DNA from: a virus
Lineage: Duplodnaviria; Heunggongvirae; Uroviricota; Caudoviricetes
Direction: 5' to 3' (one strand)
Virus record (IMG/VR): IMGVR_UViG_2778261247_000012
Length of the DNA stretch: 17,270 nt
In this document: piece after piece, positions 12,535 through 14,583 of the stretch
How positions within the stretch are numbered: position 1 is the stretch's first letter
Layout: every line of letters begins with the position of its first letter
The notes under the pieces: generated by a model
Database searches by the model: none
What the model saw: only the letters and a program-made list of their open reading frames with translations
Told to the model about the DNA's origin: nothing
Program-made: the position numbers and the translations under genes

Positions 12535-14583
12535 ATGTATGGAAAAATGGAAAAAGTTTATGATACCACTAGAATTAGTAATCTTGCTAACGACCCGAAA
12601 CAGTTTTGTTCTTTTTTTTGTGAGTACATAAAAAGAGATGATATTAGTATAGATATCGCCTTGGATGTGCTGAGAATATCTTCCATCTATTATAATAGAT
12701 TTTCAGTTCAGACTGAAGTTGAGTATAACAATACATTCAAAAAATGTATTAATGAGCTAGTAAACTCATTTCCTGATAACATTGAACTAATCTCTGAGTT
12801 CGAGAGTCAATGTAAAATTATGCATGATATAAATAATTCTTTCTTTGCGGCTACAAAATGTGCTGGTATTTGGCGTAAAAATACAAAAAAATCACATGCA
12901 TTAATACTTAATCTCATCATGTTTTGTGAGATGTTTTTATCATCATTATCATCCTTGGTTGTGGTCAATGATCCTAAAAAAATGAAGAGGATTTTTCCAT
13001 TATTTATCGTTTCTGAAAATATTAATATTCATGCTGAACCTGATATCGAATGTTTTCGAGTTATCGATAGGGCATTTGATGAGGTAGCCAATTACACCGG
13101 AAGAATATTTTCTTATTTACGGACTCATGGGCCATTGAAACTAACTTCTTGTGTGAATAAACAAACCTTGCTTTCAATGGGAGGGTACCTTAATGAGTGG
13201 AATGTTTTTGACTCATTAAGCAGAGTAAGAGACTTTTTCAGACTAAGTAGTGCAGTATTTACAAAATTGGATAATAACATTTACTCTCTTGAGGTTGATA
13301 GTTTTTGTTTATACCGAGATTATGAGATTGCAAGAAATAGACTAATGATGAGAGCGTCACATCTATATAGCGAAGTTCATGAATTTAGTAACAAACATTT
13401 TCATCTAAATAGTTGGGTAAAGGATCATATGCCATCTTACTTAAATTCTGATGGCGTTTTTAGCTCATTTCATCTAAGCGAGTTGGAAAATATGTCTCCT
13501 GATGACCTTCATGAAGAATATGGGAATATATCATTATTTAATTGGGTGCACGCTTATCAATGTTTAGTCGAGTTATCTAAAGAAGAAATGAGCAAAAGAT
13601 TTTCATCGACAAAACCTATACCCCTACAGTTGGATCGCTGGCTGATCATAAAAAGCCGTGAGAGTTGGTTATCATTCTTTCAACGTAAGGGGATTGCAGC
13701 AGATGCAGCAAAAAAACTGATAGATTATTTTACCTTCAATTCAAAATCACATGATCTTAATGATTGCCCATTTATTCCCTGTATGGACGGTTTATGCTTA
13801 ATGCCTGCATTAATAGCAAATAGCTCAGTGACTCGCTCTCTAATGTCATTATTTGGTTCCAAAAAAATTTCTCAAGCAAGTAAAGGGCGATTTCATGAGC
13901 AACAATTTATAAAACGAGTTCGTGATGCGGGGATTAAAGCTTCTCCAATTGATGCTCATGCTAATTATCAGTGTGATTGCGTGATTCTCCTGGATGATTG
14001 TTTGATTTTTACAGAACTAAAATCAAATGGTCAACCAATATATTATGGTAAGTACTATCAGCAAGTGTGTAACATCGTTGGAGATAGCTCATTAATACAT
14101 GATCATAATAATAAATTTATGCGTTCTTATTTTCAACAAATAAATCGAATTTCTGAACATTATCTTAATCATCTTGATGTGATCATTAAAGAATTCGAAC
14201 TACCATCAACATGGCAACCCAAAGGTGTGTATAAGCTTATTGTTACTACAACTATGCTCGGTGGGAAATATCATGTGGATGATACATATGTAGCGGATAA
14301 ATATGCATTATCTAGTTTTTTTCAACGAATACCTGGAGTGATATATCAAACAAATGAAAATGGAAAAATGGCGAAAAATATCATTGATGGGTTTGAGTGT
14401 TGCGAAGGGGAAATCACTATCGATAAGTTTATAGATTATCTTTCCTCTTTGCCCAGTATTAATGCTGTACGTAAAAATATAAAAAAATTAACTTATAGTG
14501 TTCGATTTAATGAAAAATTAGTCCATCACCCTTATTATGATTCTTGGGCTTTTGGTCCATATATTCGTAAGGGAAATGATTAG
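12535..14583 (+). CDS. Orphan AT-rich 682-aa protein with a putative C-terminal PD-(D/E)xK nuclease core; function unknown
   Basis: Long uninterrupted ORF in an AT-rich block, followed by a strong terminator. Residues about 455-496 show E...D...hhhhDD...E-L-K spacing (FHEQQF ... QCDCVILLDDCLIFTELK), typical of PD-(D/E)xK nucleases. No other domain recognised. Confidence 0.6.
   Translation: MYGKMEKVYDTTRISNLANDPKQFCSFFCEYIKRDDISIDIALDVLRISSIYYNRFSVQTEVEYNNTFKKCINELVNSFPDNIELISEFESQCKIMHDINNSFFAATKCAGIWRKNTKKSHALILNLIMFCEMFLSSLSSLVVVNDPKKMKRIFPLFIVSENINIHAEPDIECFRVIDRAFDEVANYTGRIFSYLRTHGPLKLTSCVNKQTLLSMGGYLNEWNVFDSLSRVRDFFRLSSAVFTKLDNNIYSLEVDSFCLYRDYEIARNRLMMRASHLYSEVHEFSNKHFHLNSWVKDHMPSYLNSDGVFSSFHLSELENMSPDDLHEEYGNISLFNWVHAYQCLVELSKEEMSKRFSSTKPIPLQLDRWLIIKSRESWLSFFQRKGIAADAAKKLIDYFTFNSKSHDLNDCPFIPCMDGLCLMPALIANSSVTRSLMSLFGSKKISQASKGRFHEQQFIKRVRDAGIKASPIDAHANYQCDCVILLDDCLIFTELKSNGQPIYYGKYYQQVCNIVGDSSLIHDHNNKFMRSYFQQINRISEHYLNHLDVIIKEFELPSTWQPKGVYKLIVTTTMLGGKYHVDDTYVADKYALSSFFQRIPGVIYQTNENGKMAKNIIDGFECCEGEITIDKFIDYLSSLPSINAVRKNIKKLTYSVRFNEKLVHHPYYDSWAFGPYIRKGND

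What the first reader, a model, noticed from the sequence alone, without database searches (positions are those of the whole stretch)
12535..14583. Orphan AT-rich 682-aa ORF with a putative PD-(D/E)xK motif just outside attR, a second candidate defence gene
The gene sits in a strongly AT-rich block between the satellite boundary and core genes, has no recognisable neighbour partners, and ends with a perfect palindromic terminator. The only motif I can see is a C-terminal E(455)...D(481)...DD(487-488)...E(494)-L-K(496) pattern with the hydrophobic strand spacing of restriction-endonuclease-fold nucleases. The large N-terminal region of about 440 aa is unassigned and could be a sensor. Islands next to tRNA-integrated elements are common sites for defence genes.
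Basis: partly seen in the sequence, partly recalled or inferred. Interest (0 to 1): 0.7.

Follow-up and report, generated by a model that had tools for sequence, protein, structure and literature searches.

The report
Unnamed solo nuclease in defence hotspot
The gene is real and encodes an unannotated protein with a large helical front half and a restriction-enzyme-type nuclease back half; it sits alone in E. coli's busiest anti-phage defence hotspot, so it is a strong but untested candidate for a new single-gene phage defence.

Summary

No Pfam, NCBIfam or PADLOC model and no PDB sequence covers the protein. The roughly 400-aa helical N-terminal region is unassigned and less conserved than the core.

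The gene belongs to the leuX-nanS slot, not to the satellite. It sits beside a BREX scar and a type IV HNH restriction enzyme. In other E. coli, McrBC plus a type I R-M, a BREX-1 cluster, or an SNF2/methylase/helicase cluster fill the slot.

Distant homologues lie next to Gabija, Lamassu plus type I R-M, pPIWI-RE and AbiJ, and never share a partner gene.

Best reading: a stand-alone sensor-nuclease defence protein. Defence activity, trigger and substrate are untested.

The parts
12535..14583 (+). ORF of 682 codons. The probable true CDS is 12547-14583 (678 aa, WP_021512607 / WP_000417001, annotated 'hypothetical protein').
12535..13734 (+). N-terminal region, aa 1-400. It is almost all helical with one hairpin at 241-253, has no family assignment, and is less conserved than the core. 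Candidate sensor or recognition module.
13747..13770 (+). Family-wide motif S-x-D407-L-x-D410-C411-P412 just upstream of the nuclease core. Function unknown.
   Evidence: P412 is invariant and D407/D410 are >=90% conserved in 91 sequences. C411 is >=90% conserved in the 20-sequence set.
13882..14334 (+). PD-(D/E)xK (NERD-like) nuclease core, aa 450-600. Catalytic residues: E455 (13897-13899), D481 (13975-13977), E494 (14014-14016), K496 (14020-14022). Further conserved residues: Q535, R538, D588, R598.
14335..14562 (+). C-terminal subdomain, aa 601-676: two hairpins, two helices, then a long hairpin, with a conserved G625-x-I-T-x-x-K631. No known fold was detected.
14606..14661 (+). Perfect 20-bp stem with a 4-nt loop, followed by a T-run. 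Likely an intrinsic terminator.
11835..11852 (+). attR: 18-nt copy (17 of 18 identical) of the leuX 3' end, marking the right end of the P4-like satellite. Homology to E. coli 536 and to genomes with an empty leuX site starts here.
11853..12534 (+). 682-bp upstream spacer that travels with the ORF. In genomes with an unoccupied leuX it abuts the tRNA directly. No convincing promoter was called.
14699..15161 (-). Scar of a BREX-1 cluster, about 84% identical to the junction between the 5' end of the PLD-like gene and the 3' end of brxL. RefSeq annotates part of it as a 'peptidase' pseudogene.
15206..16078 (-). Convergent neighbour: a 290-aa HNH restriction enzyme, named by RefSeq 'phosphorothioated DNA-binding restriction endonuclease'. 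It is accessory but widespread in E. coli.

Best explanation
The gene encodes a stand-alone, single-polypeptide nuclease of the PD-(D/E)xK superfamily. Its nearest Pfam relative is NERD. It belongs to an unannotated family and resides in the leuX-nanS defence hotspot of E. coli. Shown: a real, conserved protein of about 678 aa; a C-terminal restriction-endonuclease-like core (aa ~450-600) with an intact E-D-ExK metal-binding and catalytic set; a large, faster-evolving helical N-terminal region; no conserved partner gene; and repeated placement among known defence systems and on mobile elements. Inferred: it acts as an anti-phage sensor-effector. The N-terminal region would recognise an infection cue (a phage protein, or an unusual or modified nucleic acid) or keep the nuclease in check. 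The core would then hydrolyse invader, and possibly host, nucleic acid in a Mg2+-dependent manner. This would resemble the single-protein PD-(D/E)xK defences Upx, Shedu and ZwsA. Substrate (DNA or RNA), trigger, oligomeric state and outcome (direct immunity or abortive infection) are not known.
Against: There are no experimental data for any family member. Five close homologues in other Enterobacterales sit in mixed contexts without annotated defence genes: next to entD, kptA, flagellar or T6SS genes, and an O-antigen cluster. Ten unknown neighbour proteins gave no PADLOC hit. The E. coli protein itself hits no Pfam, NCBIfam or PADLOC model significantly. Nothing identifies what the N-terminal region binds. 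There are no phage-encoded copies, which neither supports nor refutes defence. PD-(D/E)xK domains also serve repair, recombination and transposition.
Confidence: 0.55

Rival explanations
1. It is a solitary restriction endonuclease of the FokI-like or type IV kind. The N-terminal helical region would be a DNA-recognition module for a sequence or a modified base, and the C-terminal domain a non-specific cleavage domain. It would be constitutively active against foreign or modified DNA rather than triggered by infection.
Against: No known DNA-recognition or modified-base-reading domain was detected. The N-terminal matches are generic helical repeats. This is still a defence function and overlaps the main explanation.
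Confidence: 0.2
2. It is an RNA-targeting NERD nuclease like ZwsA (Zowangsin) of Pseudomonas aeruginosa, protecting against ssRNA phages by cutting their genomic RNA.
For: ZwsA is a stand-alone multidomain effector with a helical N-terminal part, a NERD domain with an E535/D567/E580/K582 tetrad (the same D-13-ExK spacing), and a C-terminal RNA-binding domain. It lies in defence islands. The profile of the C-terminal subdomain has ribosomal protein uS4 as its best, non-significant, PDB hit (E 0.065).
Confidence: 0.1
3. It has a non-defence role: a nuclease serving DNA repair or recombination, mobile-element competition or maintenance, or a selfish addiction-type gene that merely hitchhikes in variable regions.
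For: PD-(D/E)xK domains have many roles. Several close homologues lie outside annotated defence islands. The gene occurs on plasmids, a Tn7-like element, a prophage end and integrase-bearing islands.
Against: Known defence systems replace one another in the same E. coli slot. Bona fide defence systems are adjacent in 4 of 6 informative distant loci, and the fifth carries a KAP NTPase, Mrr and PIN on an integrase element. Patchy presence, in 6% of E. coli, is typical of defence cargo. No antitoxin-like partner exists.
Confidence: 0.12
4. It is a decaying or silent relic with no current function.
For: It is AT-rich, lies next to pseudogene scars, and no promoter could be called above background.
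Against: The 2-kb frame is intact in hundreds of genomes at >=98% identity. The catalytic residues are invariant. A clean terminator follows the stop codon.
Confidence: 0.03

Closest known systems
NERD domain (Pfam PF08378) and related PDDEXK-clan families (Mrr_cat, Card1_endonuc, Hjc)
   Same: It has an E...D-x13-E-x-K core on a helix and three strands. NERD is the family hit by most members (21 of 74, best 1e-5). UniRef labels the Izhakiella homologue a 'NERD domain-containing protein'.
   Different: The E. coli protein gives no NERD hit at E<=1, and the best member hit is E 1e-5. The family adds an invariant DLxDCP motif, roughly 400 helical residues and a C-terminal subdomain that Pfam NERD does not describe.
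FokI / R.BspD6I-type cleavage domains and Mrr-like AF1548
   Different: About 10-13% identity and no sequence-level hit to any PDB chain. No FokI recognition domains and no methyltransferase partner.
Upx (single-protein PD-(D/E)xK anti-phage system; PDB 9wuf; PMC13099982; bioRxiv 10.64898/2026.04.30.721860)
   Different: Upx is 1212 aa with two nuclease domains. There is no PADLOC or PDB-sequence match to it. The N-terminal region here shows no nuclease signature.
Shedu (SduA, DUF4263)
   Different: No DUF4263 or SduA model hit. The structural score is lower than for FokI and Mrr-type enzymes.
ZwsA / Zowangsin (P. aeruginosa; bioRxiv 10.64898/2026.04.06.716636)
   Same: It is a stand-alone multidomain effector with a NERD nuclease carrying an E/D/ExK tetrad required for defence. 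It has a helical N-terminal part and lies in defence islands.
   Different: ZwsA is annotated VHS-DUF647-NERD-S4 with K at 582 and cleaves RNA. None of those accessory domains is detectable here. Homology could not be tested because no sequence was available.
PADLOC candidate PDC-M29 (component B)
   Same: It is the only PADLOC model hit. It covers aa 466-515, the D...ExK hairpin, in all 7 close members (best 2.5e-5).
   Different: The match is 50 residues of a 164-position model. PDC-M29 is a multi-gene candidate, whereas this family has no conserved partner.

Membership tests
PD-(D/E)xK (restriction endonuclease-like) superfamily | Core alpha-beta-beta-beta-alpha-beta fold | tested here: met
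PD-(D/E)xK (restriction endonuclease-like) superfamily | Catalytic signature: acidic residue on helix 1, D on strand 2, (D/E)xK on strand 3 | tested here: met
   E455 (>=90%) and D481, E494 and K496 (invariant) in 91 sequences at 15-25% identity. Their positions on the predicted elements match the canonical order.
PD-(D/E)xK (restriction endonuclease-like) superfamily | Metal-dependent phosphodiester hydrolysis | not testable with these tools
   This needs purified protein and catalytic-residue mutants.
NERD (Pfam PF08378) | Match to the Pfam model at or above its gathering score | tested here: inconclusive
   The query gives no hit at E<=1. Of 74 relatives, 21 hit NERD at E<=1, best 1e-5. It is the nearest family, but membership of the E. 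coli protein by the curated threshold is not shown.
Shedu (SduA / DUF4263) | DUF4263 nuclease domain recognised by Pfam or PADLOC SduA models | tested here: not met
Upx | Sequence homology to Upx, and two PD-(D/E)xK domains in one chain | tested here: not met
   No PADLOC hit. Profile searches of PDB sequences returned no nuclease chain of any kind, although Upx (9wuf) is among the solved structures. Only one nuclease signature is present.
ZwsA (Zowangsin) | VHS, DUF647 and S4 RNA-binding domains flanking the NERD domain | tested here: not met
ZwsA (Zowangsin) | Direct sequence homology to ZwsA | not testable with these tools
   No sequence or accession appears in the preprint text. None of the 150 best representatives has K near residue 582.
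Classical type II / IIS restriction-modification | Cognate methyltransferase in the same locus | tested here: not met
   No methyltransferase lies between leuX and nanS in the window or in strain D10. No neighbour is conserved across 13 loci.
Type IV (modification-dependent) restriction enzyme | A recognised modified-base reader domain (for example SRA, YTH, SBD or a McrB N-terminal domain) fused to the nuclease | tested here: not met
   No such Pfam, NCBIfam or PADLOC hit. Modification dependence itself cannot be tested here.
PADLOC candidate PDC-M29 | Full-length match to component B together with the partner component(s) | tested here: not met
   Only 50 of 164 model positions match. No conserved partner gene exists.
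Defence-island gene (guilt by association) | Recurrent location beside known defence systems, and replacement by them at the same locus | tested here: met
   For the E. coli slot. Distant homologues lie next to Gabija, Lamassu plus type I R-M, pPIWI-RE and AbiJ, and on an element with a KAP NTPase, Mrr and PIN. Caveat: the sample is small, and 5 close homologues lie in mixed contexts.

The most novel reading that the evidence does not exclude
This is the founding E. coli member of a previously unnamed, widespread single-gene anti-phage family: about 360 clusters at 50% identity across Proteobacteria and Bacillota, on chromosomes, plasmids, a Tn7-like element and prophage ends. A new roughly 400-aa helical sensor domain and a family-specific DLxDCP element would control a NERD-like nuclease, with a trigger and substrate not shared with Shedu, Upx or ZwsA.
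Probability: 0.4. Interest if true: 0.65.

Novelty: new variant of a known kind. Interest (0 to 1): 0.55.

Why it matters
If it is a defence system, it adds an unannotated single-gene module that current annotation tools miss (Pfam, NCBIfam, PADLOC 2.0). It is carried by about 6% of complete E. coli genomes, including the model uropathogen 536 and avian pathogenic lineages. It would be relevant to predicting phage host range and to phage therapy. It offers a compact sensor-nuclease with a well-predicted structure and clear point mutants for mechanistic work. It also shows that the leuX-nanS slot keeps its own defence cargo whatever integrates at leuX: a satellite carrying a TIR-NLR gene and a separate chromosomal defence islet are stacked side by side.

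Tried and rejected
1. Direct family assignment failed. Pfam, NCBIfam and PADLOC scans of the protein gave nothing significant.

2. PDB sequence searches with three profiles found no relative.

3. The second and third homologous-protein searches, run with alignments, returned only the same close set. Distant relatives came only from the representative-library search.

5. I looked for ZwsA among the family by its residue numbering and found none. Homology remains open.

6. The afdb50 fold library was unavailable. Foldseek against the PDB gave no hit at E<=1e-3.

I ran no further search on the close alignment. The viral-contig scan found only the E. coli copies that flank satellites.

8. I searched for a conserved partner gene by all-against-all BLAST of ORFs within 4 kb in 13 loci. 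None was found.

9. A PADLOC scan of 10 unknown neighbour proteins gave no hits.

10. The promoter scan was not above the shuffled background, so no promoter is claimed.

11. Rfam found nothing near the gene.

12. Literature searches for the protein accessions and for PDC-M29 returned nothing.

Full report
**Where the window comes from.** The window is 100% identical to E. coli strain DE17. Its gene order is as follows:
- ahr and tRNA-Leu(CAA) leuX at 122-206.
- A P4-like satellite: frameshifted integrase; a TIR-NLR cargo gene at 1700-4174, minus strand (full-length PADLOC match); psu, delta, C4/isrK RNAs and primase.
- An 18-nt copy of the leuX 3' end at 11835-11852, which is attR.
- A 682-bp spacer, then the ORF in question.
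- A pseudogene scar, then a convergent HNH restriction enzyme gene at 15206-16078.
- An HNH remnant, then nanS.

**Observation.**
- The ORF at 12535-14583 is present. Its own frame has only the terminal stop, against 47 and 99 stops in the other two frames.
- GC is 32.8% and GC3 25.3%, against 48-49% for the genes to the right.
- The stop codon is followed by a perfect 21-nt inverted repeat at 14606-14649 and a T-run. It folds at -25.8 kcal/mol, z = -6.3 against shuffles.
- One correction: RefSeq and the N-termini of the homologues point to the second ATG (M5, 12547) as the start, giving 678 aa.

**The protein and its family.** No Pfam, NCBIfam or PADLOC model hits the protein significantly, and RefSeq calls it hypothetical.
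- The word-indexed search found only E. coli copies (98-100% identical; one 90% cluster holds 3303 member sequences), a 75%-identical Salmonella partial, and five relatives at 41-56% identity. Four of these are from Izhakiella, Xenorhabdus, Pectobacterium and Pantoea, and one is from an unnamed assembly.
- A profile search of 1.84 billion cluster representatives found 360 proteins at E<=1e-3 and 182 at E<=1e-10. Most are 600-690 aa and align end to end.
- tblastn also finds members on Bacillus, Priestia and Exiguobacterium plasmids, and none in phage genomes.
- In a 91-sequence alignment at 15-25% identity, the invariant columns are P412, G451, D481, E494 and K496. D407, D410, P424, E455, Q535, R538, D588, R598 and G625 are at least 90% conserved.
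D487 and D488 are conserved mainly among close relatives.
- Conservation is concentrated in residues 400-600 (1.8-2.4 bits) and is lower in 1-380 (1.1-1.5 bits). Many relatives of normal length align only from about residue 313 onward.

**Structure.** AlphaFold2 with the 91-sequence alignment gave pLDDT 92.2 and pTM 0.91.
- Residues 1-400 are almost entirely helical.
- The conserved residues fall on H450-464 (E455), E479-486 (D481) and E489-496 (E494, K496). These are followed by helices and further strands, which is the canonical PD-(D/E)xK order.
- Matches to the helical part are generic: designed repeats, exportin, eIF3a and Bcl-2-like proteins.
- Foldseek finds nothing at E<=1e-3, and its weak top hits are again McrC, VC1899, Hjc, Cdn1 and Shedu. 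No solved structure resembles the whole protein, and no PDB chain is a sequence relative.
- Scanning 74 family members one by one against Pfam gives NERD in 21 (best 1e-5), Card1_endonuc in 9, Mrr_cat in 5 and Hjc in 2. A review read here places NERD in the PDDEXK clan (PMC9009780); that the other three families belong to it as well is from my own knowledge of Pfam.
- The only PADLOC hit is the 50-residue D...ExK core of the candidate PDC-M29B.
- Conclusion: the protein has a divergent NERD-like PD-(D/E)xK nuclease with an intact catalytic set.

**Genomic context in E. coli.** The gene is not part of the satellite.
- E. coli 536 carries a large island at leuX ending in a cbtA/yeeU module instead of the satellite. 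Its homology to the window begins exactly at 11833, which is attR.
- In strain D10 leuX is unoccupied. The order there is ahr, leuX, 690 bp, the 678-aa gene, the scar, the HNH restriction enzyme, an intact HNH gene, then nanS.
- The segment from about 11853 to about 15200 is present in about 6% of complete genomes: 331 of 5426 at >=80% coverage. The restriction enzyme gene and nanS are far more widespread, and homology breaks at about 15196-15203.
- In genomes that lack the gene, the same position holds other defence cargo:
  - McrBC plus type I HsdMS in strain M10.
  - An SNF2 / 3.1-kb methyltransferase / DEAD-helicase cluster in strain 7.1994.
  - AbiE, a PLD-like gene, a complete BREX-1 cluster and a PDDEXK nuclease in strain TK3896.
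- Window 14699-15161 is an 84%-identical scar of the PLD-like/brxL junction of such a BREX cluster.
- A recent review describes the leuX-anchored island (hotspot #37) as the most highly occupied E. coli defence hotspot, with systems replacing one another (PMC12707154).
The gene sits in a defence islet, though without an operon partner.

**Context of homologues.**
- The five close relatives are solo genes at five different chromosomal sites:
  - after entD;
  - after kptA;
  - beside a P4-type integrase, near vsr and T6SS genes;
  - between flagellar genes and an Hcp-Ntox44 module;
  - between ccdA/tacA antitoxin genes and an O-antigen cluster.
  This shows mobility but is not clearly a defence context.
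- Distant relatives (20-24% identity) are more telling:
  - P0093 lies next to a type I R-M, LmuA+LmuB (Lamassu) and PemK.
  - P0094 lies in Tn7-like cargo directly after GajA+GajB (Gabija).
  - P0100 lies at a Bacillus prophage end after the lysin, followed by pPIWI-RE.
  - P0106 lies among AbiJ/Abi_C, HEPN_AbiU2 and DUF3800.
  - P0095 lies on an integrase-bearing element with a KAP NTPase, Mrr/NA-iREase1, PIN and SNase genes.
  The Gabija, Lamassu, pPIWI-RE and AbiJ assignments were confirmed with PADLOC models.
- Two look-ups landed on contigs too short to judge.
- All-against-all BLAST of ORFs within 4 kb in 13 loci found no shared neighbour. The family is therefore a single-gene module.

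**Mechanism.**
- *Shown:* a conserved, intact nuclease active site of the restriction-endonuclease fold; a fused, faster-evolving helical region of about 400 aa; no partner gene; residence in defence islands and mobile elements.
- *Inferred:* the protein is a self-contained defence effector. The N-terminal region would provide target or trigger recognition and perhaps autoinhibition, and the core would cut nucleic acid with Mg2+.
- *Precedents:*
  - Upx is a single-protein PD-(D/E)xK anti-phage system. A middle domain autoinhibits it, a phage protein relieves that inhibition, and it recognises phage terminase (PMC13099982 and bioRxiv 10.64898/2026.04.30.721860).
  - ZwsA of P. aeruginosa is a stand-alone NERD-domain effector. 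Its E/D/E/K residues are needed for defence, and it cleaves ssRNA-phage RNA (bioRxiv 10.64898/2026.04.06.716636).
  - Shedu structures appear among the fold matches.
- *Open:* whether this protein cuts DNA or RNA, what triggers it, and whether it kills the host.
- *Unexplained:* the family-specific, nearly invariant S-x-D-L-x-D-C-P motif (405-412) and the conserved C480 next to the catalytic D481.

**Comparison with known families.**
- Membership of the PD-(D/E)xK superfamily is supported by both fold and motif.
- Membership of Pfam NERD by the curated threshold is not shown for the E. coli protein, although NERD is the nearest family.
- Shedu, Upx, PDC-M29 and classical R-M were each tested on a defining feature and not met.
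- The accessory domains of ZwsA (VHS, DUF647, S4) were looked for and not found. Direct homology could not be tested for lack of a sequence. The catalytic lysine lies at 474-515 across the family, against 582 in ZwsA.

**Verdict.** It is an unannotated single-gene family combining a known effector type with an unassigned helical region. It sits in a textbook defence hotspot next to a satellite that carries its own TIR-NLR system. A specialist would find it plausible rather than astonishing, because candidate defence nucleases are common. It is, however, well defined, widespread and immediately testable. Novelty: new variant of a known kind. Interest: 0.55.

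Noticed in passing
window 14699-15161: An ~84%-identical scar of the junction between a PLD-like gene and the 3' end of brxL from a BREX-1 cluster. That cluster fills the same leuX-nanS slot in other E. coli. RefSeq annotates part of the scar as a 'peptidase' pseudogene.
   Followed up: yes
window 358-1624: The P4-type integrase of the satellite is split into two overlapping ORFs (358-825 and 677-1624), and RefSeq flags it as frameshifted. The satellite may no longer be able to excise by itself.
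   Followed up: partly
window 1700-4174 (minus strand): An AT-rich (31.7% GC) 824-aa gene between the integrase and psu matches the PADLOC TIR-NLR model over its full length (E = 0). It has an N-terminal TIR and C-terminal TPR-like repeats, and is the satellite's own defence cargo.
   Followed up: partly
window 11345-11463 and 11527-11645: Two 119-nt direct repeats (82% identical, 182 bp apart), rich in TGTTCACC-type iterons, lie just after the primase gene. From memory they look like the P4 cis replication region (crr). This was not tested.
   Followed up: no
window 7266-7506: Rfam finds the C4 antisense RNA, its a1/b1 target and isrK. This is the P4-type RNA immunity region of the satellite.
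   Followed up: no
window 12744-12759 and 14085-14100: A perfect 16-nt inverted repeat (ATGTATTAATGAGCTA / TAGCTCATTAATACAT) lies inside the ORF, with arms 1325 nt apart. It may be chance in AT-rich DNA and is unexplained.
   Followed up: no
window 13747-13770 (aa 405-412) and aa 480: The motif S-x-D-L-x-D-C-P is nearly invariant across the family, and a conserved Cys lies next to the catalytic Asp. Neither is part of the textbook PD-(D/E)xK signature, and their role is unknown.
   Followed up: partly
window 15206-16282; L029 9363-10013: The convergent neighbour is an HNH restriction enzyme (RefSeq: phosphorothioated DNA-binding restriction endonuclease). It is followed by a 105-bp HNH remnant that is an intact 216-aa HNH gene in strain D10. 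K-12 keeps only fragments of this pair.
   Followed up: partly
L030 9020-9997: In one distant homologue's locus, a 325-aa HTH_17 protein gene ends 4 bp before the nuclease gene, on an integrase-bearing element. This is a possible lineage-specific regulator and is not conserved elsewhere.
   Followed up: no
L024-L027 (IMG/VR contigs): Four IMG/VR 'viral' contigs contain the E. coli gene at 99% identity. Apart from these E. coli copies the scan found no relative, and I did not examine the contigs further. The gene lies outside attR in the window, so these calls may simply run past the satellite boundary.
   Followed up: no
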